Assembly: GCA_964016885.1 (NCBI GenBank)
Contig: OZ024743.1
Coordinates: 286,316,001 to 286,380,000, forward strand
Length of the DNA stretch: 64,000 nt
Source: Eledone cirrhosa
Taxonomy: Eukaryota
Direction: 5' to 3'
The notes under the pieces are model-generated. The model worked only from the letters and a program-made list of their open reading frames with translations. It searched no databases and had not been told where the DNA came from. The position numbers and the translations under genes are program-made. Below, piece by piece: positions 1-44,504 of the stretch (positions are counted from its first letter, which is position 1; each line of letters begins with the position of its first letter).

Positions 1-575
1 CCACTATAAGGGCTGGAGACATGATGTGATGGGCATGGTGATCCACTGGCACCTGTGCAAAGTAAACAATTTTCCACATTCTGAGAAATGGTATGAGCAT
101 AGGCGAGAGGCGGTGATGGAGAACGATCAGGTGAAGGTGCTGTGGGATTTTAGGATACAGACGGACAAGAAACTGGAACACAATAGACCTGACCTGGTGG
201 TTGTGGACAAACAAAAAAGATCGTGCCTGATTGTGGATGTGGCCTGCCCATTCGACACGAGAGTGCAAGAGAAGGAGAGGGAGAAAATTAACCGATACCA
301 GGACTTAAAGTGGGAGGTAAAAAGGATTTGGAACTGCCATGAAGTCAAAGTGATCCCGATTGTCATAGGCGCACTGGGGACTATCTCCAAAAGTTTCCAG
401 GGATGGTTAAAGAAAATCGGCCCCTTCACGCTTTTTGGAACGCTTCAAAAGGCATGCTTGCTGGGAACAGCAAGAACCCTCCGATACGTCCTGAATATCT
501 GAGGCTGCAGGTAGTGGCTTGATATTCATTCCAACGGACTTACCAGTTAACCAACATCAATGACTGAGATTCAAG

Positions 576-577
<2 letters not shown>
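1..577 (+). mobile_element. 3' end of R4/Dong-like RLE non-LTR retrotransposon (family A); continues off the window
   Basis: ORF 26-502 has the restriction-like endonuclease motifs (HNRPDLVVVD...DVACP...KINRYQDL). Nearly identical to 7163-7740, including the 3' UTR. Followed by (TAA)n. Confidence 0.92.

Positions 578-651
<74 letters not shown>
578..651. repeat. (TAA)n microsatellite, tail/target of Dong-like elements
   Basis: Direct reading; lies between the family A 3' UTR and the 5'-truncated family B copy. Confidence 0.97.
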
Positions 652-652
<1 letters not shown>

Positions 653-3145
653 GACAGACAAATGAAAGATACAGCTCACCTTGAGGAACAAATATGGGAA
701 AATATAACAGTTGAACCGTTGCGCTTGGCTCTAAGAAAAACCAGCAAATTGAAATCCCCAGGAAAAGACAAAATACAAAAGTTTTGGATAAATGCCTTCT
801 CAGAGTCTCATGAGCTGTTAGCCCAACTTTACAATGAAATAGTTAAGGAGCCAGAAAAGATACTATCATGGCTAGTTAACGGCATTACATTCCTGCTTCC
901 GAAGAATGATGAGACAAACAATCCCAAAATTACAGACCGATAACTTGCTTGACCACAATGTATAACATTTTAACATCAGTCCTAACTGAATATACATATG
1001 ACCACCTGATAACAAATGACCTATTTTCTATTGACCAGAAAGGGTGTAAACGAGGCTCATATGGCTGTAAGGATCAGCTTTTGGTTAACAAAATGATACT
1101 GGAAGATTGTCATAATAGACACAAAAATTTATCAATTGCTTGGATAGATTATAAAAAAGCATTCGATAGTTTGCCACACAGTTGGATTGAAAAATGTTTA
1201 GAGATTTTCAAAATATCCCCCGTTGTCAGGAGGTTTTTGTCATTCAGTATGAAGACATGGAAAACGACACTCCTTTTGAATAGTGAAACAAAATCACTGG
1301 AAGCTGGAGAAGTTAATATTAATTGTGGAATTTTTCAGGGTGACTCTTTATCACCGCTTTTATTCTGCATCGCACTTATACCATTAAGTAAAATGCTCAA
1401 TGAAACAAAACATGGATATAAAGTCTATGACAAAACCATTAATCACTTGTTCTACATGGATGACCTGAAACTATTTGCAAAAAATGATGAACAATTGCAA
1501 GGGCTATTATCCACTGTGGAGCGGTTCAGTGATGACATTAAAATGGAGTTTGGACTAGATAAATGCGCCAAAGCAACGTTCACCAGAGGAAAGCTGCTGA
1601 AGAGTTCAGACATTAATCTTGATCGGGGGAACGTGATAAGAGAACTTGATCAAGAAAAAACTTACAAATATCTAGGTGTTTGTGAAGGAGACGGAATCAA
1701 GCACTCGACAATGAGGGAAAGGATAAGGAAGGAATGTTACCGCAGAGTAAGAGCAATCTTAAGAACGGAATTGAATGCAAGGAATAGGATCGATGCCATA
1801 AACACGCTTGCCATACCAGTAGTAACCTACAGTTACAATGTCATCAACTGTCAAGCACAGAGATCCGTAGGCTCGATACAAAAATTAGAAAATTCTTAAC
1901 CATGCACAGAATGCATCACCCTAAGGCAGATACAGATATAATATATCTCCCTATGAAAGAAGGAGGACGTGGGTTAATCCAGTTAGATATTGCGTTGAAA
2001 ACTGCAACAATTGGATTATCTACATATCTAAGGGAATTACATTTTTGGATGATCAAACTCGTTTTGAAACACGAAAGCATCAAAAGATCATATTCCATTA
2101 CAAAAGATGCACAAAGATACAGTAATGGACTACAAATTTCAGAAGTCCCATTTACTGCTGACATGGAAAACACAGAAAAAGCAAAGCAGGTAAAAGTAAC
2201 TGCTAAGAAAGAACTGCTACAGAAACTGGCTAAGAAATGGCAAGAAAAGCCTCTGTATGGAAAATACCCAGAACGAGCTAATAGTCCTGATGTTGACAAA
2301 ACTTTAACCCATCAGTGGTTGGCATCCTCTGGACTGAAATCGGAGACTGAAGGACTGATTATATCAGCACAAGATCAGTGTCTGCCAACAAAAAATTACC
2401 AAGCCAACATAATAAAAAATGGATGCAGCCCATTATGCCGTGTATGCAAAAAACAACCAGAGACCATTGACCATATAATTTCAATGTGCAGTCCTATAGC
2501 TCCAACCGAATACCTAAACAGGCATAACAGAGCTGCACAATACATATTTTGGATAATGTGTAAGCATTTTGACCTGCCCCATCAAAAGAATTGGTGGGAG
2601 CATCAACCACCTCCCATACTTGAAAAAGATCACATCTCAATCTTGTGGAACTTTAGCATCCAAACAGACCGAAAAATAGATGCAAATAGACCTGATATAA
2701 TATTGAAGGACTTTAAAAAGAGGGTATGCCTGCTAATTGATATGTCTGTTCCAATAGACAAGAATGTATCTATAAAAACATTTGAAAAATTGAGCAAGTA
2801 TAAGGACCTGGAGATAGAAATTGTAAAAATGTGGAAATTGAGAACTAAAACAATACCAGTGGTTGTAGGCGCTCTGGGAATGATACCTAAGGGGTCTAAT
2901 GATTACTTATCGCAAATCCCAGGAAACCCGCGTATAGGAGAAATACAAAAGATAGTACTAATGGGAACTGCCCATATACTAAGGAAGATTCTGTCAATAT
3001 AAGTACATCACAAGTCTAAACACTAAAGATGCATGTGTGTGTATGCATGTTCTTTCTTGAACATGGCGGACCTTGTTGTCTCTTGAGGTCACTGGTTGTG
3101 ACTTGGTGATAACTCGTATGAACATAAAGCAAGATAAATGCAACT

Positions 3146-3147
<2 letters not shown>
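652..3147 (+). mobile_element. 5'-truncated R4/Dong-like RLE retrotransposon (family B), frameshifted
   Basis: ORFs 560-943, 949-1899 and 1902-3002 give KSPGKD, QKGC, WIDYKKAFDS, GIFQGDSLSP, FYMDDLKL, a CCHC finger (CRVC...H...C), RHN and NRPD. Two frameshifts. (TAA)n tail at 3148-3202. Confidence 0.92.
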
Positions 3148-3203
<56 letters not shown>

Positions 3204-4139
3204 GGGAAGAAGACGCACGAGGTGACGGAGGTCATGAAATCGCTCCCGTAAGTTTTGAATTTTTAACATATTTAAACCATTTGTGAAATAACAACTCTTA
3301 GCACAAATGCTACGTAAAGCACCCGGCTTGAGCCCCAAAAAATTCGGACCCAAAATATATTGTTATAAGGCTCAAATATTCAAATATTCAACTTTGTATT
3401 GTACACTGTATATCCAAAAAAAAAAAATGGCTATAAATGGAAGAAGAACCCCTCCCCTCATCTCCTCTGGCTACACTATATAGGACAGCTAAACTCACCA
3501 ACACCAGAAACTAGATACACCACCCACCCCATCATCTGTGTACACTAAACACAACAGCCAGATAACGACACATTTTCACCTTCACCGCCACCGCTCACTA
3601 CGGCCATCATTACCACCACTATCCCATCACCGCCGCCACCACCCCTTGACTCCGCTACAGCACCATGACTACAGTAATACGGTCACATCACCGCCACCAC
3701 TGCCTCGGTATCGACATCACCACCACCACTGTCTCAGTATCGCTAACGCCGCCAGTCTCCCACTTCCCTGCTGGCTGCTACTTCCACATTATAGAATTCC
3801 TACTACTAACAAAGAGGAAGGCATCAAAATATATAGATAGACCCAAAAGAAAAAAGAAAAAACAAACAACAAAACCAAAGCAGCACAGCAACAACAGCAA
3901 AAAACGAGAAAAACAAACAGAGAAAAACAAAAACAAAATAAAAGAAACCCCAAAAACGTAAAGAAAATAAGAATGAAGAGAGAAGCAGGCGGACGGACAG
4001 AGAAGAGGGGGGAAAAAGTAAAACTTAAAAAACTAAAACTAAGTCAGACATTCGAACACTACATTACAATGAAACTTATGCTTATTCATTTCTGGGGCCC
4101 TTTCTGCCTGTGTGTTTGTTTGTTTATGTGTGTTCGTAT

Positions 4140-7100
4140 ACAGCGTGGCGATAATGCCACACAAGGGCCAAGTGGGATGGCGGATCCACAGATGGCTATG
4201 TAAACATACATTCGCCAATCCTCGATAAGAGTGTTTAAATATCGAACATAAACAGTTCGAATAACGGTGAAATGGAGACTAGAACGTCATGTGACAGACT
4301 CTCACCCAACAGGTGCCCCCTGGCTCAGCAGCAGGAACCTGACTGTCAACCAAATACTGCTGATGTTGGAGGAAGGAGAAGAAGGAAAGGGGCCAGAACC
4401 AACTGGACGAAAGAATTGAATAGAACTGTTATGCAATGCTACCTGAAAAGTAACCCCAAGGAGAGGGGCTACAGGAGACGGATGCATAACATCTGGAACG
4501 AGATTGGTTTATTTAAATTAGATGAACAAAAATTGGCCGGGCAGGCTCGGGTAATAAGAACTAATGGGTGGATAAGCGAGCTGGAACTGGAGGAACTGAG
4601 CAGAGAGAATGGCTTGGAGATGGCGGGTGTAGTATGCCAGACAAGCGAGCCGGTGGGAAATGAAGGTGAGGAGGTCCTGAGAACGGAGGAACCACCCGAA
4701 GCAGACAATGATCTGAGTACTGAGATAAATAATACCTGGAACAGAGATACGGCCACTGAGGAGATGAATGCTGACGGGCTAGGACAAGATTCGGTTGACA
4801 TCCTAAATTTAGTGGTAGATGAATTGAACAATGATAGTGGGAGACCTATGAACCTAAGATTTGTAGACAGGAAAAAGTTAAAAGAAACAACAGCTAAGGT
4901 AAACAAAGTCATCTAATACCTTGAGGCGAGGAGCCTTCACCAGTGCAACAATATCCTCAGAGCAACAGCAAATACGGTGAGGAAACTACTTGGTATAAAA
5001 GCGATAGGAAACAACAGACAGGAAAGAGTAGAGCCGTGGTGGAAGAAGCGACTGAGTGGGCAAATCGGGGAAATGAGAAATGACATAGGAAAGCTTGAGT
5101 CACTACTGAATGGGACACTAAAAAACATAGGCACTAAAAATAGACTGGAAATAAAGTACAAAACTAAAGGGAAAAAGCTAAATATTATCATAGAGGAATT
5201 GAAGCAACGCATTGTAGCAAAGAGTGCCAAAATCAGGCGATACGAGAACAGAGTCAGTCAGTATAAACAGAACCGCATGTTCGACAACAACCAGAAGATG
5301 CTGTTTGGACAGCTTGAGGGCAAAGAAAGAGGCAACGACTTGATCCCTGGGGCGGAGCAAACTAAAACATTCTGGAGAGGAATATGGGAGCAGGATGTTA
5401 GACACAATGCCCAGGCAGGGTGGATTGAGACAGTACAGAGGGAGATCGGTGAGCAGGCACAGCAACAAACTGATTTGAGTATCACAGTTGAAACTCTTAA
5501 GGGGCAAGCCAAAAAACTAACCAACTGGAAATCACCAGGCCCAGATGGTGTGCAGGGATATTGGATTAAACATCTAACATCCCTCCACCCGAAGCTGACG
5601 GCCATGTTCAATGAATGCTTGGTGTCGGGTGAGGTGCCAGAGTGGTTGACAAAAGGTACCACAGTTCTGATAATGAAAGACCGAATCAAGGGTAATGATG
5701 CTACCAACTATAGACCTATCACATGTCTGCCCGTAATGTGGAAACTGTTGACGAGCATTGTGTCTGAGGAAATCTACCATCACCTCCACACAAACAACTT
5801 GTTACCGGACGAACAGAAAGGATGCCGAAAGAAGTCACGTGGTACAAAGGACCAGTTGCTTATTGATAAGATGGTAATGGGGAATTGCAGGAGGAGACAC
5901 ACTGATCTTGCCATGGGATGGATAGACTACAGAAAGGCATTTGACATGGTGCCTCATTCCTGGATCACCAAAAGCCTGGAGATCTTCAGGGTGGCGGATA
6001 ACATCAGACAGTTGCTAGGCAGGAGTATGGGGTCCTGGGAGACAGAGTTGACATCAACTGGAGTATCCTTGGGAAGCGTGAAGATCAAGAGAGGTATCTT
6101 CCAGGGAGATAGCCTGTCCCCTCTGTTGTTTGTCCTTGCCCTGATGCCCTTGACCATTATGCTGCGAAAAGTGAGAGCAGGATACAAGTTGGGAAGGGGA
6201 GAGCTTACCATCAATCACCTCCTCTTCATGGACGATCTTAAGCTCTTCGGGAAAAGTGAGAAGGAGTTGGATGTGCTTGTTGACACTGTCCGTATTTTCA
6301 GCAGTGATATATGTATGCAGTTTGGTATTGGTAAATGTGGAGTCATTGTGATGAAGAGGGGTAGGTTGAGCAGAAGTAACGGGATCCAGATACCAACAGG
6401 TGAGATGATAAAGGAAATTGACTCTGAGGAAGGATACAAGTATTTGGGCGTTCTGGAGGCTGATGGCATAAAGAACAAAAAAATGAAGGAATTGTTAAGA
6501 ACTGAATACATTCGGAGAGTAAGGAGCGTATTGAAGTCACATCTGAACAGCAGAAATGCCATAAGCGCAGTAAATTCCCGAGCTGTGTCTATTATTAGGT
6601 ACAGTGCGGGAATTCTGAGATGGAATGTTGCTGAACAGAAAGAAATGGATAGGAAGACTAGGAAGCTATTGACTATCTACAACATGTTCCACAAGAGGAG
6701 TGATGTCGATAGACTCTACCTAAGGAGATCTGAGGGTGGAAGAGGTCTTATCAGCATAGAGGACTGTGTTCAGATGGAGAAAAACAACCTATACAAATAC
6801 GTGACCTATAGTAAGGAGCCAATGCTCAGAGCTGTACTGAAGGAGGGGACAGTAGGCCAGGGGATGTCCAGGGAGGAAATAACATCAAGGAGGAAGAGCA
6901 GCCTTAAGGGAAAACCCCTTCATAGTACCTTCTTTGAGAAAACTGAATTTAGAGATCCACAGACATGGAACTGGTTGAGAAGAGGAGACCTCAAAAAGGC
7001 TACAGAAGGAATGCTAATGGCTGCGCAGGAGCAGGCCCTCAAAACGAAGTGGTTGAAGCACCATATCTACAAGGAGGAGGCCAGCCCACTGTGCAGGATC

Positions 7101-7740
7101 TGTGGAGAGAGAGAGGAGACTGTGGCTCACATTGTATCCGAGTGTAAACACCTAGCCCAGACCCACTATAAGGGCTGGAGACACGATGTGATGGGCAGGG
7201 TGATCCACTGGCACCTGTGCAAAGTAAACAATCTACCACACTCTGAGAAATGGTATGAGCATAGGCCAGAGGCGGTGATGGAGAACAGTCAGGTGAAGGT
7301 GCTGTGGGATTTTAGGATACAGACGGACAAAAAACTGGAACACAATAGACCTGACCTGGTGGTTGTGGACAAAGAAAAAAGATCGTGCCTGATTGTGGAT
7401 GTGGCCTGCCCGTTCGACACGAGAGTGCAAGAGAAGGAGAGGGAGAAAATTAACCGATACCAGGACCTAAAGTGGGAGGTGAAAAGGATTTGGAACTGCC
7501 ATGAAGTCAAAGTGATCCCGATTGTCATAGGCGCACTGGGGTCTATCTCCAAAAGTTTCCAGGGATGGTTAAAGAAAATCGGCCCCTTCACGCTTTTTGG
7601 AACGCTTCAAAAGGCGTGCTTGCTTGGAACAGCAAGAACCCTCCGATACGTCCTGAATATCTGAGGCTGCAGGTAGTGGCTTGATATTCAATCCAACGGA
7701 CTTTCCAGTTAACCAACATCAATGACTGAGATTCAAGGAA
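4140..7740 (+). mobile_element. Near-full-length R4/Dong-like RLE retrotransposon (family A)
   Basis: Single RT-CCHC-RLE reading frame; 3' UTR matches 503-577; (TAA)n(GAA)n tail at 7741-7790. The 5' boundary is approximate. Confidence 0.9.
4272..7664 (+). pseudogene. RT-RLE polyprotein interrupted by one in-frame TAA (4914-4916)
   Basis: ORFs 4272-4916 and 4977-7664 are in the same frame. Motifs: KSPGPDG, NYRPITCL, GIFQGDSLSP, LFMDDLKL, CRIC..H..C, RHD, NRPD. Confidence 0.9.
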
Positions 7741-8459
7741 TAACAACAATAATAATAATAATAATAATAAGAAGAAGAAGAAGAAGAAGATATAGTGGTC
7801 ATTATTGGATGAGAGTGTTACTTACGGAGCCAAATAAAATATTATTTGAGAATGATAATTATAGAAAGAAAGGTACTTATATGAGAACTATTACAACGTG
7901 ATTTATTAACACTCATTTTTTTAATAAAATATGAAGGACATAAGAGATTTAATCAACCCTAGTACTTGAATTGTATCTCATTTATCGAAACCGGATATAT
8001 CGGCAAGATTTTAACTCTGAACTTAAGGGTGGGTGTGGTGGGGTGGGTGGGGGTGAATAGGATATTTTGTCCAGTGACCTGCTTATTCTGCTATACTGTA
8101 CCTCGCATGGGCCTTGGTGGGTGGGGGGGGGGATTGGACAATTTAGTTACAGTGATTAGTTTAGCTCTTAGCACTCTAAAATGGTCTTATCAATTTGTCA
8201 GATTCTCCCCACCTGGTCTTTATTCCCCCACCCCCACCCGCTTATTAAATTTTCTAATCTTTCTCCGGCGAAATCTTTTTGTAATTGATTCATATTGATA
8301 CAGCAGCTGGAGCATCTAATAATAATTTTATTTAAAAAAAAACATTATATATGACAAAAGCAGAACATTATAAGAAATCCCATACGTACACTATACAATT
8401 ACTAACTTCCCAAGCTCCCTCCCCCCATTATTCCACCGATTATTTGGGACCCGCGAGTG

Positions 8460-20980: not shown

Positions 20981-21665
20981 AATATATGAACAACCGTCCG
21001 GTTGTGAAACCAACCAACCAACCAACGGGATATTTATAAATTTTTAAATTTATAATTTAATTTATAATAAATTGAAGTGAAAGCAACTGGTGCGTGTGTT
21101 TCTTATTGGCAACATGACCCTCCCAAAGTATAACAATATCGGTTTCAACACACGTTTTCAGAAAAAGAATCTTGCTAAACAAATTCAGAAACGAAATATA
21201 TATATATATATATATATACGTATAAATAAATAAAAAGATTAATGGCTCGTATACAGGAAACTGAATGACCTGTCTGATGCAGTTATGTTTACATGCCAAC
21301 ACAAGAGCAAGAATGAGGGGCTCATTCTACTGACATGGCTTTAAAAAGAGGCTGTTTGCATAATTGCAAATGAATCGAATATTATTATTAATATTCGAAA
21401 AACCCAGATTACATTTATAGATATATAGATATATACTTACGGTAAATATTGATTCAATTCAAGTATTCTACGTACTTTTTCTACATAGGAATGACGGAGT
21501 ATATTTAGATTATATAAGAAAATGCGAAGTAGTTTCAGATGTTAAAGTCCTTTATTGATAAGGCTGTGATACATATTTCAATGACGACAGTGGCCACGCG
21601 GTTCCGCCTAACCAGTGCCATGATTTCCTCGAGGCAATCCAAATTAAAATGGACATATATATATA

Positions 21666-21977
21666 CATGAGCCAACTTATGCAGCTTCATATGCAAATGA
21701 AATTAATCACCTCATTTACACAGACGAGAAAACTATATATTCTCGCCTGTCTTCTAGTCCAGCAGTCGCAAGCGGTGGGAGGGACCGTCCTGACGATGGC
21801 CAGTTAAGCCTGAAATGCATAGACGGTTGTCCCCCTTGCTTCTGCTGGACATCACCAGAGGCCATTAGCCCCCCGGTGTTTGCATAGCTACGGCTTCCTA
21901 AAACCGTATTTCTTTGGAGATACGAAATATTTATACATATTGTATAAAGCTATGCTTGAAGCGAAATCCTATTTGTT
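21666..21977 (+). mobile_element. Small non-coding hammerhead-bearing element between (TA)n tracts
   Basis: Octamer at 21691-21698, TATATA at 21734-21739, long stem 21757-21850 enclosing a hammerhead. Confidence 0.7.
21784..21827 (+). ncRNA. Minimal type I hammerhead ribozyme (U.U stem II closure)
   Basis: ACCGTC-CTGACGA-T-GGC(CAGTTAA)GCC-T-GAAA-TGCA-TA^GACGGT: perfect 6-bp stem I, palindromic stem III ATGCAT, AUA site after 21821. Confidence 0.85.
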
Positions 21978-22117
21978 TATATATATATATATATATATAA
22001 GTTGAAAAAAATGAAAACGAAATTTCATTTCTCACTCTTAGTATGGCACTTACTTAAATGTAAGTATGCATGCATACGTACATACATATATGTATACAGA
22101 CGTACAGTAGCACGCAT

Positions 22118-22148
<31 letters not shown>

Positions 22149-22326
22149 CACATATATATACACATATGCATACAGGTACACATACATATATGCACGCATC
22201 AGTTTAGCCGACGTTTATTATAACGCCTGCTTTTTTCGTTTGTTTGTCAACAAATCGAACAGCCTGAATTTATGCCATACGGTGTTAAGGCAACCACGTC
22301 ACCTTTTTGTTCAACACTGACACAGG

Positions 22327-22371
22327 AACGATGTACTAGTTTCAAGCTTGTTAGCTATCATCAGCACCGTT
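22327..22371 (-). ncRNA. Minimal type I hammerhead ribozyme (first of 18 copies, one per unit)
   Basis: Minus strand: AACGGTG-CTGATGA-T-AGCT(AACA)AGCT-T-GAAA-CTAG-TA^CATCGTT. 7-bp stem I, palindromic stem III ACTAGT, GUA site between 22334 and 22333. Confidence 0.88.
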
Positions 22372-22404
22372 TACCCATCTGCCAGATAGTTGAACGTTCG
22401 AAAG

Positions 22405-22452
22405 TATATACTTTCCTTATGAAAATTAACGGCTGAGCAGCCTAATTTGCAT
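22405..22452 (-). promoter_or_regulatory. Candidate internal promoter: octamer ATGCAAAT - 34 nt - TATATA, upstream of the ribozyme (in every unit)
   Basis: ATTTGCAT at 22445-22452 and TATATA at 22405-22410; same spacing at 44072-44119 and, on the plus strand, at 21691-21739. Confidence 0.5.
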
Positions 22453-22610
22453 ATTGAGTGAGTTAAATCGGTCAGGCATACCGAAAACGATAAGTTGAAA
22501 AAAATGAAAACGAAATTTCATTTCTCACTCTTAGTATGGCACTTACTTAAATGTAAGTATGCATGCATACGTACATACATATATGTATACAGACGTACAG
22601 TAGCACGCAT

Positions 22611-22641
<31 letters not shown>

Positions 22642-23103
22642 CACATATATATACACATATGCATACAGGTACACATACATATATGCACGCATCAGTTTAG
22701 CCGACGTTTATTATAACGCCTGCTTTTTTCGTTTGTTTGTCAACAAATCGAACAGCCTGAATTTATGCCATACGGTGTTAAGGCAACCACGTCACCTTTT
22801 TGTTCAACACTGACACAGGAACGATGTACTAGTTTCAAGCTTGTTAGCTATCATCAGCACCGTTTACCCATCTGCCAGATAGTTGAACGTTCGAAAGTAT
22901 ATACTTTCCTTATGAAAATTAACGGCTGAGCAGCCTAATTTGCATATTGGGTGAGTTAAATCGGTCAGGCATACCGAAAACGATAAGTTGAAAAAAATGA
23001 AAACGAAATTTCATTTCTCACTCTTAGTATGGCACTTACTTAAATGTAAGTATGCATGCATACGTACATACATATATGTATACAGACGTACAGTAGCACG
23101 CAT

Positions 23104-23134
<31 letters not shown>

Positions 23135-23596
23135 CACATATATATACACATATGCATACAGGTACACATACATATATGCACGCATCAGTTTAGCCGACGT
23201 TTATTATAACGCCTGCTTTTTTCGTTTGTTTGTCAACAAATCGAACAGCCTGAATTTATGCCATACGGTGTTAAGGCAACCACGTCACCTTTTTGTTCAA
23301 CACTGACACAGGAACGATGTACTAGTTTCAAGCTTGTTAGCTATCATCAGCACCGTTTACCCATCTGCCAGATAGTTGAACGTTCGAAAGTATATACTTT
23401 CCTTATGAAAATTAACGGCTGAGCAGCCTAATTTGCATATTGAGTGAGTTAAATCGGTCAGGCATACCGAAAACGATAAGTTGAAAAAAATGAAAACGAA
23501 ATTTCATTTCTCACTCTTAGTATGGCACTTACTTAAATGTAAGTATGCATGCATACGTACATACATATATGTATACAGACGTACAGTAGCACGCAT

Positions 23597-23627
<31 letters not shown>

Positions 23628-24078
23628 CACATATATATACAGGTACACATACATATATGCACGCATCAGTTTAGCCGACGTTTATTATAACGCCTGCTTT
23701 TTTCGTTTGTTTGTCAACAAATCGAACAGCCTGAATTTATGCCATACGGTGTTAAGGCAACCACGTCACCTTTTTGTTCAACACTGACACAGGAACGATG
23801 TACTAGTTTCAAGCTTGTTAGCTATCATCAGCACCGTTTACCCATCTGCCAGATAGTTGAACGTTCGAAAGTATATACTTTCCTTATGAAAATTAACGGC
23901 TGAGCAGCCTAATTTGCATATTGAGTGAGTTAAATCGGTCAGGCATACCGAAAACGATAAGTTGAAAAAAAATGAAAACGAAACTTCATTTCTCACTCTT
24001 AGTATGGCACTTACTTAAATGTAAGTATGCATGCATACGTACATACATATATGTATACAGACGTACAGTAGCACGCAT

Positions 24079-24109
<31 letters not shown>

Positions 24110-24571
24110 CACATATATATACACATATGCATACAGGTACACATACATATATGCACGCATCAGTTTAGCCGACGTTTATTATAACGCCTGCTTTTTTCGT
24201 TTGTTTGTCAACAAATCGAACAGCCTGAATTTATGCCATACGGTGTTAAGGCAACCACGTCACCTTTTTGTTCAACACTGACACAGGAACGATGTACTAG
24301 TTTCAAGCTTGTTAGCTATCATCAGCACCGTTTACCCATCTGCCAGATAGTTGAACGTTCGAAAGTATATACTTTCCTTATGAAAATTAACGGCTGAGCA
24401 GCCTAATTTGCATATTGAGTGAGTTAAATCGGTCAGGCATACCGAAAACGATAAGTTGAAAAAAATGAAAACGAAATTTCATTTCTCACTCTTAGTATGG
24501 CACTTACTTAAATGTAAGTATGCATGCATACGTACATACATATATGTATACAGACGTACAGTAGCACGCAT

Positions 24572-24602
<31 letters not shown>

Positions 24603-25064
24603 CACATATATATACACATATGCATACAGGTACACATACATATATGCACGCATCAGTTTAGCCGACGTTTATTATAACGCCTGCTTTTTTCGTTTGTTTG
24701 TCAACAAATCGAACAGCCTGAATTTATGCCATACGGTGTTAAGGCAACCACGTCACCTTTTTGTTCAACACTGACACAGGAACGATGTACTAGTTTCAAG
24801 CTTGTTAGCTATCATCAGCACCGTTTACCCATCTGCCAGATAGTTGAACGTTCGAAAGTATATACTTTCCTTATGAAAATTAACGGCTGAGCAGCCTAAT
24901 TTGCATATTGAGTGAGTTAAATCGGTCAGGCATACCGAAAACGATAAGTTGAAAAAAATGAAAACGAAATTTCATTTCTCACTCTTAGTATGGCACTTAC
25001 TTAAATGTAAGTATGCATGCATACGTACATACATATATGTATACAGACGTACAGTAGCACGCAT

Positions 25065-25095
<31 letters not shown>

Positions 25096-25557
25096 CACAT
25101 ATATATACACATATGCATACAGGTACACATACATATATGCACGCATCAGTTTAGCCGACGTTTATTATAACGCCTGCTTTTTTCGTTTGTTTGTCAACAA
25201 ATCGAACAGCCTGAATTTATGCCATACGGTGTTAAGGCAACCACGTCACCTTTTTGTTCAACACTGACACAGGAACGATGTACTAGTTTCAAGCTTGTTA
25301 GCTATCATCAGCACCGTTTACCCATCTGCCAGATAGTTGAACGTTCGAAAGTATATACTTTCCTTATGAAAATTAACGGCTGAGCAGCCTAATTTGCATA
25401 TTGAGTGAGTTAAATCGGTCAGGCATACCGAAAACGATAAGTTGAAAAAAATGAAAACGAAATTTCATTTCTCACTCTTAGTATGGCACTTACTTAAATG
25501 TAAGTATGCATGCATACGTACATACATATATGTATACAGACGTACAGTAGCACGCAT

Positions 25558-25588
<31 letters not shown>

Positions 25589-26050
25589 CACATATATATA
25601 CACATATGCATACAGGTACACATACATATATGCACGCATCAGTTTAGCCGACGTTTATTATAACGCCTGCTTTTTTCGTTTGTTTGTCAACAAATCGAAC
25701 AGCCTGAATTTATGCCATACGGTGTTAAGGCAACCACGTCACCTTTTTGTTCAACACTGACACAGGAACGATGTACTAGTTTCAAGCTTGTTAGCTATCA
25801 TCAGCACCGTTTACCCATCTGCCAGATAGTTGAACGTTCGAAAGTATATACTTTCCTTATGAAAATTAACGGCTGAGCAGCCTAATTTGCATATTGAGTG
25901 AGTTAAATCGGTCAGGCATACCGAAAACGATAAGTTGAAAAAAATGAAAACGAAATTTCATTTCTCACTCTTAGTATGGCACTTACTTAAATGTAAGTAT
26001 GCATGCATACGTACATACATATATGTATACAGACGTACAGTAGCACGCAT

Positions 26051-26081
<31 letters not shown>

Positions 26082-26543
26082 CACATATATATACACATAT
26101 GCATACAGGTACACATACATATATGCACGCATCAGTTTAGCCGACGTTTATTATAACGCCTGCTTTTTTCGTTTGTTTGTCAACAAATCGAACAGCCTGA
26201 ATTTATGCCATACGGTGTTAAGGCAACCACGTCACCTTTTTGTTCAACACTGACACAGGAACGATGTACTAGTTTCAAGCTTGTTAGCTATCATCAGCAC
26301 CGTTTACCCATCTGCCAGATAGTTGAACGTTCGAAAGTATATACTTTCCTTATGAAAATTAACGGCTGAGCAGCCTAATTTGCATATTGGGTGAGTTAAA
26401 TCGGTCAGGCATACCGAAAACGATAAGTTGAAAAAAATGAAAACGAAATTTCATTTCTCACTCTTAGTATGGCACTTACTTAAATGTAAGTATGCATGCA
26501 TACGTACATACATATATGTATACAGACGTACAGTAGCACGCAT

Positions 26544-26574
<31 letters not shown>

Positions 26575-27036
26575 CACATATATATACACATATGCATACA
26601 GGTACACATACATATATGCACGCATCAGTTTAGCCGACGTTTATTATAACGCCTGCTTTTTTCGTTTGTTTGTCAACAAATCGAACAGCCTGAATTTATG
26701 CCATACGGTGTTAAGGCAACCACGTCACCTTTTTGTTCAACACTGACACAGGAACGATGTACTAGTTTCAAGCTTGTTAGCTATCATCAGCACCGTTTAC
26801 CCATCTGCCAGATAGTTGAACGTTCGAAAGTATATACTTTCCTTATGAAAATTAACGGCTGAGCAGCCTAATTTGCATATTGAGTGAGTTAAATCGGTCA
26901 GGCATACCGAAAACGATAAGTTGAAAAAAATGAAAACGAAATTTCATTTCTCACTCTTAGTATGGCACTTACTTAAATGTAAGTATGCATGCATACGTAC
27001 ATACATATATGTATACAGACGTACAGTAGCACGCAT

Positions 27037-27067
<31 letters not shown>

Positions 27068-27517
27068 CACATATATATACAGGTACACATACATATATGC
27101 ACGCATCAGTTTAGCCGACGTTTATTATAACGCCTGCTTTTTTCGTTTGTTTGTCAACAAATCGAACAGCCTGAATTTATGCCATACGGTGTTAAGGCAA
27201 CCACGTCACCTTTTTGTTCAACACTGACACAGGAACGATGTACTAGTTTCAAGCTTGTTAGCTATCATCAGCACCGTTTACCCATCTGCCAGATAGTTGA
27301 ACGTTCGAAAGTATATACTTTCCTTATGAAAATTAACGGCTGAGCAGCCTAATTTGCATATTGAGTGAGTTAAATCGGTCAGGCATACCGAAAACGATAA
27401 GTTGAAAAAAATGAAAACGAAATTTCATTTCTCACTCTTAGTATGGCACTTACTTAAATGTAAGTATGCATGCATACGTACATACATATATGTATACAGA
27501 CGTACAGTAGCACGCAT

Positions 27518-27548
<31 letters not shown>

Positions 27549-28010
27549 CACATATATATACACATATGCATACAGGTACACATACATATATGCACGCATC
27601 AGTTTAGCCGACGTTTATTATAACGCCTGCTTTTTTCGTTTGTTTGTCAACAAATCGAACAGCCTGAATTTATGCCATACGGTGTTAAGGCAACCACGTC
27701 ACCTTTTTGTTCAACACTGACACAGGAACGATGTACTAGTTTCAAGCTTGTTAGCTATCATCAGCACCGTTTACCCATCTGCCAGATAGTTGAACGTTCG
27801 AAAGTATATACTTTCCTTATGAAAATTAACGGCTGAGCAGCCTAATTTGCATATTGAGTGAGTTAAATCGGTCAGGCATACCGAAAACGATAAGTTGAAA
27901 AAAATGAAAACGAAATTTCATTTCTCACTCTTAGTATGGCACTTACTTAAATGAAAGTATGCATGCATACGTACATACATATATGTATACAGACGTACAG
28001 TAGCACGCAT

Positions 28011-28041
<31 letters not shown>

Positions 28042-28503
28042 CACATATATATACACATATGCATACAGGTACACATACATATATGCACGCATCAGTTTAG
28101 CCGACGTTTATTATAACGCCTGCTTTTTTCGTTTGTTTGTCAACAAATCGAACAGCCTGAATTTATGCCATACGGTGTTAAGGCAACCACGTCACCTTTT
28201 TGTTCAACACTGACACAGGAACGATGTACTAGTTTCAAGCTTGTTAGCTATCATCAGCACCGTTTACCCATCTGCCAGATAGTTGAACGTTCGAAAGTAT
28301 ATACTTTCCTTATGAAAATTAACGGCTGAGCAGCCTAATTTGCATATTGAGTGAGTTAAATCGGTCAGGCATACCGAAAACGATAAGTTGAAAAAAATGA
28401 AAACGAAATTTCATTTCTCACTCTTAGTATGGCACTTACTTAAATGTAAGTATGCATGCATACGTACATACATATATGTATACAGACGTACAGTAGCACG
28501 CAT

Positions 28504-28534
<31 letters not shown>

Positions 28535-28994
28535 CACATATATATACACATATGCATACAGGTACACATACATATATGCACGCATCAGTTTAGCCGACGT
28601 TTATTATAACGCCTGCTTTTTTCGTTTGTTTGTCAACAAATCGAACAGCCTGAATTTATGCCATACGGTGTTAAGGCAACCACGTCACCTTTTTGTTCAA
28701 CACTGACACAGGAACGATGTACTAGTTTCAAGCTTGTTAGCTATCATCAGCACCGTTTACCCATCTGCCAGATAGTTGAACGTTCGAAAGTATATACTTT
28801 CCTTATGAAAATTAACGGCTGAGCAGCCTAATTTGCATATTGAGTGAGTTAAATCGGTCAGGCATACCGAAAACGATAAGTTGAAAAAAATGAAAACGAA
28901 ATTTCATTTCTCACTCTTAGTATGGCACTTACTTAAATGTAAGTATGCATGCATACGTACATACATATATGTATACAGACGTACAGTAGCACGC

Positions 28995-29025
<31 letters not shown>

Positions 29026-29491
29026 CACACACATATATATACACATATGCATACAGGTACACATACATATATGCACGCATCAGTTTAGCCGACGTTTATT
29101 ATAACGCCTGCTTTTTTCGTTTGTTTGTCAACAAATCGAACAGCCTGAATTTATGCCATACGGTGTTAAGGCAACCACGTCACCTTTTTGTTCAACACTG
29201 ACACAGGAACGATGTACTAGTTTCAAGCTTGTTAGCTATCATCAGCACCGTTTACCCATCTGCCAGATAGTTGAACGTTCGAAAGTATATACTTTCCTTA
29301 TGAAAATTAACGGCTGAGCAGCCTAATTTGCATATTGAGTGAGTTAAATCGGTCAGGCATACCGAAAACGATAAGTTGAAAAAAATGAAAACGAAATTTC
29401 ATTTCTCACTCTTAGTATGGCACTTACTTAAATGTAAGTATGCATGCATACGTACATACATATATGTATACAGACGTACAGTAGCACGCAT

Positions 29492-29522
<31 letters not shown>

Positions 29523-29984
29523 CACATATATATACACATATGCATACAGGTACACATACATATATGCACGCATCAGTTTAGCCGACGTTTATTATAACGC
29601 CTGCTTTTTTCGTTTGTTTGTCAACAAATCGAACAGCCTGAATTTATGCCATACGGTGTTAAGGCAACCACGTCACCTTTTTGTTCAACACTGACACAGG
29701 AACGATGTACTAGTTTCAAGCTTGTTAGCTATCATCAGCACCGTTTACCCATCTGCCAGATAGTTGAACGTTCGAAAGTATATACTTTCCTTATGAAAAT
29801 TAACGGCTGAGCAGCCTAATTTGCATATTGAGTGAGTTAAATCGGTCAGGCATACCGAAAACGATAAGTTGAAAAAAATGAAAACGAAATTTCATTTCTC
29901 ACTCTTAGTATGGCACTTACTTAAATGTAAGTATGCATGCATACGTACATACATATATGTATACAGACGTACAGTAGCACGCAT

Positions 29985-30015
<31 letters not shown>

Positions 30016-30477
30016 CACATATATATACACATATGCATACAGGTACACATACATATATGCACGCATCAGTTTAGCCGACGTTTATTATAACGCCTGCTTT
30101 TTTCGTTTGTTTGTCAACAAATCGAACAGCCTGAATTTATGCCATACGGTGTTAAGGCAACCACGTCACCTTTTTGTTCAACACTGACACAGGAACGATG
30201 TACTAGTTTCAAGCTTGTTAGCTATCATCAGCACCGTTTACCCATCTGCCAGATAGTTGAACGTTCGAAAGTATATACTTTCCTTATGAAAATTAACGGC
30301 TGAGCAGCCTAATTTGCATATTGAGTGAGTTAAATCGGTCAGGCATACCGAAAACGATAAGTTGAAAAAAATGAAAACGAAATTTCATTTCTCACTCTTA
30401 GTATGGCACTTACTTAAATGTAAGTATGCATGCATACGTACATACATATATGTATACAGACGTACAGTAGCACGCAT

Positions 30478-30508
<31 letters not shown>

Positions 30509-30970
30509 CACATATATATACACATATGCATACAGGTACACATACATATATGCACGCATCAGTTTAGCCGACGTTTATTATAACGCCTGCTTTTTTCGTT
30601 TGTTTGTCAACAAATCGAACAGCCTGAATTTATGCCATACGGTGTTAAGGCAACCACGTCACCTTTTTGTTCAACACTGACACAGGAACGATGTACTAGT
30701 TTCAAGCTTGTTAGCTATCATCAGCACCGTTTACCCATCTGCCAGATAGTTGAACGTTCGAAAGTATATACTTTCCTTATGAAAATTAACGGCTGAGCAG
30801 CCTAATTTGCATATTGAGTGAGTTAAATCGGTCAGGCATACCGAAAACGATAAGTTGAAAAAAATGAAAACGAAATTTCATTTCTCACTCTTAGTATGGC
30901 ACTTACTTAAATGTAAGTATGCATGCATACGTACATACATATATGTATACAGACGTACAGTAGCACGCAT

Positions 30971-31001
<31 letters not shown>

Positions 31002-31193
31002 CACATATATATACACATATGCATACAGGTACACATACATATATCACGCATCAGTTTAGCCGACGTTTATTATAACGCCTGCTTTTTTCGTTTGTTTGTC
31101 AACAAATCGAACAGCCTGAATTTATGCCATACGGTGTTAAGGCAACCACGTATATATATATATATAAATTGGAATAAATGCTCTGAAATAGCG

Positions 31194-31474
31194 ATATATA
31201 TGTGAATATAGACATAGAATATTCGAAAATATTCTGTATGTTTATAATAAACATTTTGAAGACCTAATCGCTATAGAATAGAATACGTCACGTATTACAA
31301 TTAGATTCTCGATAAAAGCAAGAATGAAACGCGTAGATTACTTCCCTTGCTTTTATCGAGAATCTAATTGTAATACGTGACGTATTCTATTCTATAGCGA
31401 TTAGGTCTTCAAAATGTTTATTATAAACATACAGAATATTTTCGAATATTCTATGTCTATATTCACATATATAT
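31194..31474. repeat. Perfect ~129-bp inverted repeat; loop holds a hammerhead 3' half
   Basis: Arms 31194-31322 and 31346-31474; loop AATGAAACGCGTAGATTACTTCC contains GAAAC-GC-GTA. Confidence 0.92.
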
Positions 31475-43735: not shown

Positions 43736-44211
43736 ATAAACGGAAAAAATGAAACGAAATTTCATTTCCCACTCTTAGTACGGCTGTTACTTAAATATAA
43801 GTATGTACACGTACATACATATATGAATACAGACGTACAGTAGTATGTATATATATATACACACATGCACACATATATATATGTACGTATGGATTCACCG
43901 AACATTTATTATAATGCTCGGTGTGTTTGTAAACAAACATCCAGAATTAAGCCGTAGTGTCTAGCAACCATCGTTGCTCGTTTGTTCAACACTGACAAAG
44001 GAACGCTGTACTAGTTTCAAGCTTATTAGCTATCGTCAGCAACGTATACCTTCCTGCCAGATTGTTGAACGTATATACTTACCTTATGCATATTAACGGC
44101 TGAGTAGCCCAATTTGCATATCGAGGGGGTTAATCAGCCGGGTGCACCGAAAACGATAAACGGAAAAAATGGAAACGAAATTTCATTTCCCACTCTTAGT
44201 ACGGCTGTTAC
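43736..44211 (-). mobile_element. Diverged relative of the 493-bp unit: 420-bp period, about 1.13 copies
   Basis: Shares AAACGAAATTTCATTTC(C/T)CACTCTTAGTA, TACAGACGTACAGTAG, TTTGTTCAACACTGACA, the hammerhead and CCGAAAACGATAA; start repeats at 43741 and 44161. Confidence 0.88.
44003..44045 (-). ncRNA. Minimal type I hammerhead ribozyme (U.U variant)
   Basis: Minus strand: ACGTTG-CTGACGA-T-AGCT(AATA)AGCT-T-GAAA-CTAG-TA^CAGCGT. Confidence 0.85.
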
Positions 44212-44504
44212 ATACATACATATATACACACACAGGCCGACGTTGGTGTTTGATGAGGTTGAGAACCTGGTCAGCTTTCAGTCAGAGCTGTTGTATTTAA
44301 TCTGCCTAGGTAATACAATCTGGAGACAAAATTTTCTCCTTACCAAAAGAAAACATAAATCAAGTCAACATCCTGACACACTTAAATATAAATGCATGTA
44401 TATATACAAATATATAAATACATAGCTATATACATAGCTAAATGTATGTATATATCTATGTATGTAGATTTTTATATATATATATGAACGTATATGTGTA
44501 TGTA

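What the first reader, a model, noticed from the sequence alone, without database searches (positions are those of the whole stretch)
21691..22452. Octamer - 34/35 nt - TATATA module upstream of hammerheads in otherwise dissimilar mini-elements
Seen: ATGCAAAT followed 34 nt later by TATATA lies on the ribozyme strand in the array (22452 to 22405) and the sister copy (44119 to 44072). The same pair with a 35-nt spacer occurs in the element at 21691-21739, whose other sequence does not resemble the array. A start 25-30 nt after TATA would fall close to the start of the ribozyme stem in each case. Established: ATGCAAAT is the POU/Oct binding site used with TATA boxes in immunoglobulin, histone H2B and snRNA-type promoters. 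Inference: each unit carries its own promoter, so one unit drives transcription of the next and cleavage releases a monomer that keeps the promoter. I know of no description of this arrangement in retrozymes, but I cannot search for one.
Basis: partly seen in the sequence, partly recalled or inferred. Interest (0 to 1): 0.75.

Follow-up and report, generated by a model that had tools for sequence, protein, structure and literature searches.

The report
Ribozyme repeats carrying hybrid snRNA promoter
These are copies of very abundant self-cutting RNA repeats of a known kind (retrozymes), and just ahead of the ribozyme each unit carries DNA signals matching those in front of the host's own small nuclear RNA genes, so the repeats likely switch on their own transcription, an idea with precedents in newts and schistosomes.

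Summary
ATGCAAAT-34-TATATA precedes a type I hammerhead in 18 of 18 array units and at 44119; the spacer is 35 at 21691. These are two families (A, about 30,000 core matches; B) of non-LTR retrozymes inserted in (TA)n. The host's own genes explain the module. U6, U6atac and MRP carry the same TATGCAAATKAG box 38-40 nt before a TATA at -30. U1, U2, U4, U5 and U12 lack the box but have YCAGY 25-28 nt before a TATA-like box. A carries both: box, TCAGC 26 nt before TATA, and a predicted start at a Y|A step. B has TCACC at 27. Across families the spacer is not fixed (34-36 or 39-40), and one family lacks the octamer. Best reading: an internal snRNA-type promoter, more likely read by Pol II, with read-through, cleavage, circularisation and Penelope-driven copying. 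No RNA evidence was obtainable. The promoter-per-unit model is already published for schistosome and newt hammerhead repeats. This scan found the U6-like box before, on other DNA of this genome (8 notes shown). What is added here is the U1/U2-type core and the two spacing classes.

The parts
21665..21980 (+). Family B retrozyme, solo copy of a unit of about 327 nt, flanked by (TA)n
   Evidence: 75-95% identical copies in 9 other loci
21690..21701 (+). B: octamer-containing box TATGCAAATGAA (family form TATGCAAATGAG, identical to the box of host U6a and MRP)
21707..21711 (+). B: PSE-like core TCACC, 27 nt before TATA (weak match to host YCAGY; TCAGC in sister family B2)
21734..21739 (+). B: TATATA; predicted +1 at 21764 (CAGC|A), inferred from the host -30 rule
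21757..21850 (+). B: type I hammerhead with extended stem I; CTGACGA at 21790, predicted cut after AUA at 21821
21997..31151 (-). Family A array: 18 full units (481-495 nt, 11 identical) plus a 302-nt partial unit, flanked by (TA)n
22442..22453 (-). A unit 1: box TATGCAAATTAG, identical to the box of host U6b
22432..22436 (-). A unit 1: PSE-like core TCAGC, 26 nt before TATA, as in host U1/U2/U5 (TCAGT) and U4/U12 (CCAGC)
22405..22410 (-). A unit 1: TATATA; predicted +1 at 22380 (TGGC|A), inferred
22309..22395 (-). A unit 1: type I hammerhead with extended stem I; CTGATGA starts at 22364, predicted cut after GUA at 22334
21997..22011 (-). A: T7 run and the common 3' end of insertions (…CAACTTAT then (AT)n), 9 nt after the run
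43737..44217 (-). Family A subfamily A2 copy, a little over one unit: box at 44120-44109, TCAGC 44103, TATATA 44077-44072, CTGACGA 44039; 8-nt deletion between TATA and ribozyme

Best explanation
The array, the 44119 copy and the 21691 element are non-LTR retrozymes whose octamer-core-TATA block matches the upstream signals of the host's snRNA genes and likely works as an internal snRNA-type promoter, more likely read by RNA polymerase II in these two families. Shown: the block, its match to host genes, the hammerhead motif, (TA)n insertion, tandem and inverted copies. Inferred: transcription starts about 30 nt after the TATA start, runs through the ribozyme, the T-run and the next unit's promoter; two cuts release a monomer that is predicted to be ligated to a circle; a Penelope-like RT would copy the circle or multimer into (TA)n for more than one turn, which puts a promoter back in front of a whole ribozyme. 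A solo copy would make only a sub-monomer RNA and could not propagate alone.
For: Host Pol III genes U6 (3 promoter types), U6atac and MRP carry TATG[CG][AT]AAT[TG]AG at -77 to -79 and TATA at -30 (5 of 5 types). Host Pol II genes carry YCAGY at -55 to -58 with a TATA-like box near -30 and no octamer box in 400 nt: 13 of 13 U1/U2/U5 types, 2 of 2 U4 types and U12. YCA[GC] lies 25-28 nt before TATA in 14 of 18 element representatives (about 5% each by shuffling; not independent); in A it is the best site of a host-trained matrix (6.1-8.2 bits; host leave-gene-out 6.0-14.1). Predicted +1 is Y|A in 7 of 7 A/B representatives (U1: AGC|A or AAC|A) and T|G in 2 of 3 of family C, which has U6 spacing. 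Among 52 distinct A sequences chosen by a downstream anchor, 1 of 21 motif columns is polymorphic (an alignment-gap column) against 21 of 81 others (p 0.03). The subfamily 8-nt deletion lies downstream of TATA and leaves box-core-TATA spacing intact. A1 has a T7 and A2 a T6 run before the next promoter, and no 3'-box-like motif was found in six element sequences against 10 of 13 host Pol II genes: Pol II would read through, Pol III would tend to stop. Of 96 A contexts, 73 run upstream past the octamer, and the other 23 5' ends are scattered with no pile-up at +1 or at the cut: the template was continuous across both. The monomer folds with its two ends paired in stem I (z -8.1, partly from the TA-rich hairpin). 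RT plus GIY-YIG ORFs exist in the genome.
Against: No transcript evidence. The octamer box is found only in Pol III host genes, and no sampled host gene combines box and YCAGY core. The core is only 4-5 letters; I relaxed it after seeing the data, and B's TCACC, C, E and F score poorly on the matrix. Family C has U6 spacing and also a TCAG at 26, so the two signals do not separate cleanly. The T-run is not universal: some A copies have ATTCTATT in its place and B has no T5. Families may share the block by descent (F against A1: 78% over 59 nt), so they are not independent trials. In vertebrates a TATA box selects Pol III (PMC1761439 introduction), although here U1/U2/U5 have TATA-like boxes too. 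RNase P has TCAGT at -66 and no box. No Penelope partner sharing sequence with A or B was identified.
Confidence: 0.55

Rival explanations
1. The block is a U6-type Pol III promoter; multimers arise from leaky read-through of the T-run.
For: The box is identical to that of U6a, U6b and MRP and absent from Pol II snRNA genes. Family C has U6 spacing (39), a T|G start and two 17-nt stretches 94% identical to the U6b promoter. A T-run lies near the 3' end of A.
Against: In A and B the box lies 4-5 nt closer to TATA than in any host Pol III gene sampled (34-35 against 38-40). Element 3' ends lie 9 nt beyond the T7 run, most copies keep the upstream promoter, and arrays reach 18 units, all of which needs read-through.
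Confidence: 0.22
2. An mRNA-type Pol II promoter (POU site plus TATA, as in H2B or immunoglobulin genes; recalled) with no SNAPc role.
For: Octamer and TATA are both present; the octamer is dispensable in family G and its distance varies.
Against: Family G keeps CCAGT 27 nt before TATA, resembling host U5. The 12-nt box matches host U6/MRP letter for letter. mRNA promoters of this host were not examined.
Confidence: 0.1
3. The block is not a working promoter: it is kept by descent or as RNA structure, and the arrays are transcribed from neighbouring promoters.
For: In A the octamer lies in a predicted hairpin (z -2.0); TATATA is common here (4,289 control matches); families share ancestry.
Against: The B segment has no significant fold (z -0.87), and in C the octamer sits partly in the loop of a different inverted repeat (sequence). 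Letters and spacing match host snRNA genes in three separate elements; 247 against 1; subfamily changes avoid the motifs.
Confidence: 0.13

Closest known systems
Metazoan non-LTR retrozymes (Cervera and de la Pena 2020, PMC7229834: passages and parts 3-4 of 6 read, supplement not readable; Li, Clavereau and Pollet, bioRxiv 10.64898/2026.07.22.740005: part 1 of 5 and term search)
   Same: Short tandem non-coding units with one type I hammerhead each, thousands of copies, coexisting with Penelope-like elements; proposed circRNA and PLE-RT cycle.
   Different: Neither main text describes an internal promoter ('octamer' and 'TATA' 0 hits in both; 'promoter' only for T7 in the first, 0 in the second). 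Unit A (493 nt) is longer than the 170-400 nt range given. circRNA is untested here.
Newt satellite 2 (Coats, Zhang and Epstein 1994; Cremisi 1992). Papers not held; seen only as citing passages in PMC2220036 and PMC6765202
   Same: Hammerhead satellite with an internal snRNA-type promoter driving Pol II.
   Different: That it uses an octamer plus a PSE is recalled, not read. Here box, core and TATA lie within 50 nt, and the design is shared by several families with two spacings.
Schistosome Sm-alpha hammerhead repeats (Ferbeyre 1998, not held; described in review PMC6765202, passages read)
   Same: Promoter followed by hammerhead in each unit; the promoter ends up at the 3' end of the cut monomer; the upstream unit transcribes the next.
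   Different: Reported as a Pol III promoter in a SINE-like element; here the signals match snRNA upstream promoters.
Host snRNA promoters of this genome (U6/U6atac/MRP type and U1/U2/U4/U5/U12 type)
   Same: Same 12-nt box, same YCAGY core to TATA distance, TATA, purine at predicted +1.
   Different: No sampled host gene has both box and core; in A and B the box is 4-5 nt closer to TATA than in U6.
Plant LTR retrozyme NbRZ1 (PMC12029980, abstract only)
   Same: A retrozyme with its own mapped promoter.
   Different: LTR element of plants, not a tandem animal repeat; no snRNA-type promoter mentioned in the abstract.

Membership tests
Non-LTR retrozyme | Type I hammerhead in each unit | tested here: met
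   Core and stems in 18 of 18 units, 44119 and 21691; no Rfam gathering match
Non-LTR retrozyme | Short non-coding tandem or partial-tandem units, high copy number | tested here: met
   493-nt x 18.6 array; 29,620 A core matches against 0; no ORF of 150 aa or more in 21660-31151; B copies longer than one unit
Non-LTR retrozyme | Self-cleavage and circular RNA in vivo | not testable with these tools
   No RNA holder listed
Non-LTR retrozyme | Mobilised by a Penelope-like element | tested here: inconclusive
   (TA)n targets, inverted and tandem copies; RT+GIY-YIG ORFs present; no partner with shared sequence found
Host U6-type (Pol III type 3) promoter | TATGCAAATKAG box and TATA | tested here: met
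Host U6-type (Pol III type 3) promoter | Octamer-to-TATA spacer of 38-40 nt | tested here: not met
   34 in A, 35 in B; met in families C and D
Host U1/U2-type (Pol II snRNA) promoter | YCAGY core 25-28 nt before a TATA-like box | tested here: met
   A: TCAGC at 26
Host U1/U2-type (Pol II snRNA) promoter | Same core in family B | tested here: inconclusive
   TCACC at 27 scores poorly; sister B2 has TCAGC at 28
Host U1/U2-type (Pol II snRNA) promoter | 3' box after the transcript | tested here: not met
   0 of 6 element sequences against 10 of 13 host genes with a simple pattern; absence fits read-through
snRNA-type promoter (either polymerase) | SNAPc binding and a start at the predicted +1 | not testable with these tools
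   Needs 5' mapping, ChIP or reporter assays

The most novel reading that the evidence does not exclude
This genome's retrozyme families have assembled a hybrid promoter found in no sampled host gene (U6-type octamer box plus U1/U2-type core plus TATA) and have diversified into a short-spaced Pol II class (A, B, E, F; 34-36 nt, A start) and a long-spaced Pol III class (C, D; 39-40 nt, G start). Tens of thousands of copies would then be a natural polymerase-switch series and a genome-wide sink for SNAPc and POU factors, and would explain why animal retrozymes are so highly expressed.
Probability: 0.25. Interest if true: 0.75.

Novelty: new variant of a known kind. Interest (0 to 1): 0.5.

Why it matters
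Animal retrozymes make abundant circular RNAs, but the two family-wide papers read here do not say what transcribes them. A defined promoter with a predicted start site, shared by several families and matched to host snRNA genes, makes that question directly testable. [quoted passage not shown]

Tried and rejected
Rfam scan of the window: no match. RNA evidence: no RNA holder listed; contigs of four runs of unknown kind were laid and say nothing about starts or expression. Using 5' ends of genomic copies as a footprint of the start site: no pile-up at +1 in 23 truncated copies. Mapping of A 3' ends by BLAST was noisy because of microsatellite matches and was read only by eye. Search for a host gene with both box and core (U1, U2, U3, U4, U5, U6, U6atac, U12, MRP, RNase P, SRP): none; U11, U4atac, U7, 7SK, tRNA-Sec and vault were not searched. 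Inheritance of the box from Penelope pLTRs: no box in 25 short GIY-YIG loci on the coding strand or in 11 of 12 long loci, the twelfth being an inserted A copy; the output was cut, so part of the BLAST against these loci was not seen. Literature: five targeted searches showed no paper describing an octamer-TATA or snRNA promoter in retrozymes other than the newt and schistosome citations; a search for mollusc U6 promoters gave nothing useful. Primary papers on newt and schistosome repeats are not held, and the supplement of PMC7229834, which may show whether mussel retrozymes have the box, could not be read. Rejected: 'fixed 34/35 spacing' as a general rule; the genome-wide count as evidence of enrichment.

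Full report
OBSERVATION. The window holds 21 exact octamers. Eighteen lie in a 493-nt tandem array (21997-31151) on the minus strand, each 34 nt before TATATA; the copy at 44119 has 34 and the element at 21691 has 35; the one at 2680 has no TATATA and no ribozyme behind it. All 20 are followed by CTGAYGA…GAAA…TA with a 6-7 bp stem I, and an extended stem I is predicted for the array unit and for 21691 (z about -2.6). Rfam reports nothing at gathering score. The array and 44119 are one family (A; 72% gapped identity); 21691 (family B) has no BLAST hit to them better than E 0.17.

WHAT THE ELEMENTS ARE. The genome has 3.0 Gb; that the animal is a cephalopod is recalled from its repeats and from earlier notes, not tested. 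A 21-nt core of family A has 29,620 matches against 0 for the control; a loose hammerhead core has 160,652 against 5,575. A and B copies sit in (TA)n, often as partial tandems or with an inverted truncated copy beside them. The commonest 3' end of A, read by eye from a noisy table, is 37 nt upstream of the octamer and 9 nt after a T7 run, not at the ribozyme cut. Of 96 distinct contexts around the first 100 listed A cores, 73 extend upstream past the octamer, 57 keep an exact octamer-33..36-TATATA, and 23 are truncated at scattered places with no pile-up at the predicted start or the cut. The solo B copy also runs from upstream of the promoter through an intact ribozyme. Such copies cannot come from a linear cut monomer or from a transcript that began at the unit's own start; the template must have been continuous, a circle or a multimer (inference). 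The cut-to-cut monomer folds with its ends paired in stem I. This is the non-LTR retrozyme design of PMC7229834. RT plus GIY-YIG ORFs of the Penelope type exist (150 scored hits; a 938-aa ORF); 4 of 12 long loci carry one shared hammerhead family about 380-410 nt after the stop, without the box. No partner specific to A or B was found.

WHAT THE MODULE IS. I compared it with the host's own small RNA genes. Of 30 U6 loci, 2 dispersed genes have ATGCAAAT at -76/-77, 26 clustered copies have ATGCTAAT (6 of them with a repeat inserted between TATA and gene), and 2 have nothing, likely retrocopies. One of 6 U6atac loci and the single MRP gene have the same box; the other U6atac hits lack it. The shared form is TATG[CG][AT]AAT[TG]AG at -77 to -79 with TATA at -30, an octamer-to-TATA spacer of 38-40. 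Pol II snRNA genes differ: 13 of 13 promoter types that I picked as non-redundant from 40 U1, U2 and U5 loci have YCAGT at -55 to -58, a TATA-like box near -30 and no box in 400 nt; both U4 types and U12 have TCAGT or CCAGC there, U3 has TCATT, SRP has neither, and RNase P has TCAGT at -66 without a box. Family A has the box, then TCAGC 26 nt before TATATA; B has TCACC at 27. With +1 set 30 nt after the TATA start, the step is Y|A in 7 of 7 A and B representatives, as in U1. Subfamily differences in A avoid the three motifs (1 of 21 against 21 of 81 columns, p 0.03; 8 of the 21 are one deletion, and the core was part of the selecting anchor).

HOW GENERAL. A search for box-N33-40-TATAWA-N35-62-CTGANGA gave 247 matches against 1. 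The 30 loci examined hold A (4), A3 (1), B (6), B2 (2), C (13), D (1), D2 (1) and E (2); spacers are 34-37 in A, B and E (one broken copy apart), 38-41 in C and D; family C's hammerheads are often decayed (5 of 13 without a recognisable core). The reverse test is less flattering: of the first 30 hammerhead-like hits, 5 have a sense octamer within 130 nt upstream (4 of family F, 1 of A), 3 more are truncated or mutated A and B copies, family G has CCAGT and TATA but no octamer, and the Penelope-like minimal hammerheads have no module. YCA[GC] lies 25-28 nt before TATA in 14 of 18 representatives (chance about 5% each), but these are related, I relaxed the motif after looking, and a host-trained matrix picks that site as best only in A, B2 (1 of 2) and D (1 of 2). 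F aligns with A over the promoter (78% over 59 nt), and A3 and B2 look intermediate between A and B by eye, so the shared 34/35 spacing probably reflects descent plus selection.

MECHANISM. Most likely each unit carries an snRNA-type promoter. A transcript starting at 22380 would keep the core stem I, be cut 46 nt later, and run on through the unit, its T7 run and the next promoter to the next ribozyme; two cuts give a 493-nt monomer with the promoter near its 3' end; ligation and rolling reverse transcription into (TA)n restore promoter-before-ribozyme order. I favour Pol II for A and B because the core-to-TATA distance and start letter are those of U1-type genes, the box is 4-5 nt closer to TATA than in any Pol III gene sampled, a T6-T7 run must be passed, and no 3' box is seen. 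Against this, the box occurs only in Pol III host genes and family C looks U6-like. In insects, small PSE differences decide the polymerase (PMC1761439, abstract, introduction and passages), so sequence alone cannot settle it. Every step after the DNA anatomy is inferred; there is no RNA evidence.

COMPARISON AND NOVELTY. The elements meet the testable features of non-LTR retrozymes. The two family-wide retrozyme texts searched do not mention an internal promoter. Eight earlier notes of this scan on other DNA of the same genome report the U6-like box; I had reached that reading, and their agreement is not independent support. Verdict: a real feature, a new variant of a known kind, interest 0.5.

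Noticed in passing
window 21997-31151: Units 2 and 9 share one substitution and units 4 and 11 share a 12-nt deletion: a 7-unit period, so the array grew at least partly by block duplication, not by one pass round a monomer circle.
   Followed up: partly
window 31163-31464; L179: Inverted fragment of retrozyme family G (311-nt tandem unit elsewhere) abuts the array's 5' end; G has CCAGT and TATA like host U5 but no octamer.
   Followed up: partly
window 35837 (-), 35355 (+) and 20943 (+): Further hammerhead-like motifs of the minimal Penelope type without the module; the 35355 type also lies 1.4 kb after the GIY-YIG ORF of L285.
   Followed up: partly
L283, L284, L287, L291: GIY-YIG elements (RT domain confirmed in L283) with a hammerhead about 380-410 nt after the stop, preceded by CCAAT-like boxes, a possible mRNA-type promoter in the pseudo-LTR.
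   Followed up: no
L033-L060 (G000:C19:31.78-31.84 Mb): Tandem U6 cluster; in 6 of 26 copies examined a repeat of about 190 nt is inserted between TATA and gene, with a short duplication that leaves a TATA-like box at -28.
   Followed up: no
L111-L138, L061-L072, L292, L302: This animal's Pol II snRNA genes have a TATA-like box near -30 and a 3' box close to AAAAYCAGAC, unlike the TATA-less vertebrate pattern.
   Followed up: partly
window 577-3203 and 3147-7770: RT-encoding retroelements bounded by (AAT)n/(TAA)n repeats (Pfam RVT_1); an R4/Dong-like assignment is recalled, not tested. The octamer at 2680 lies in this coding region.
   Followed up: no
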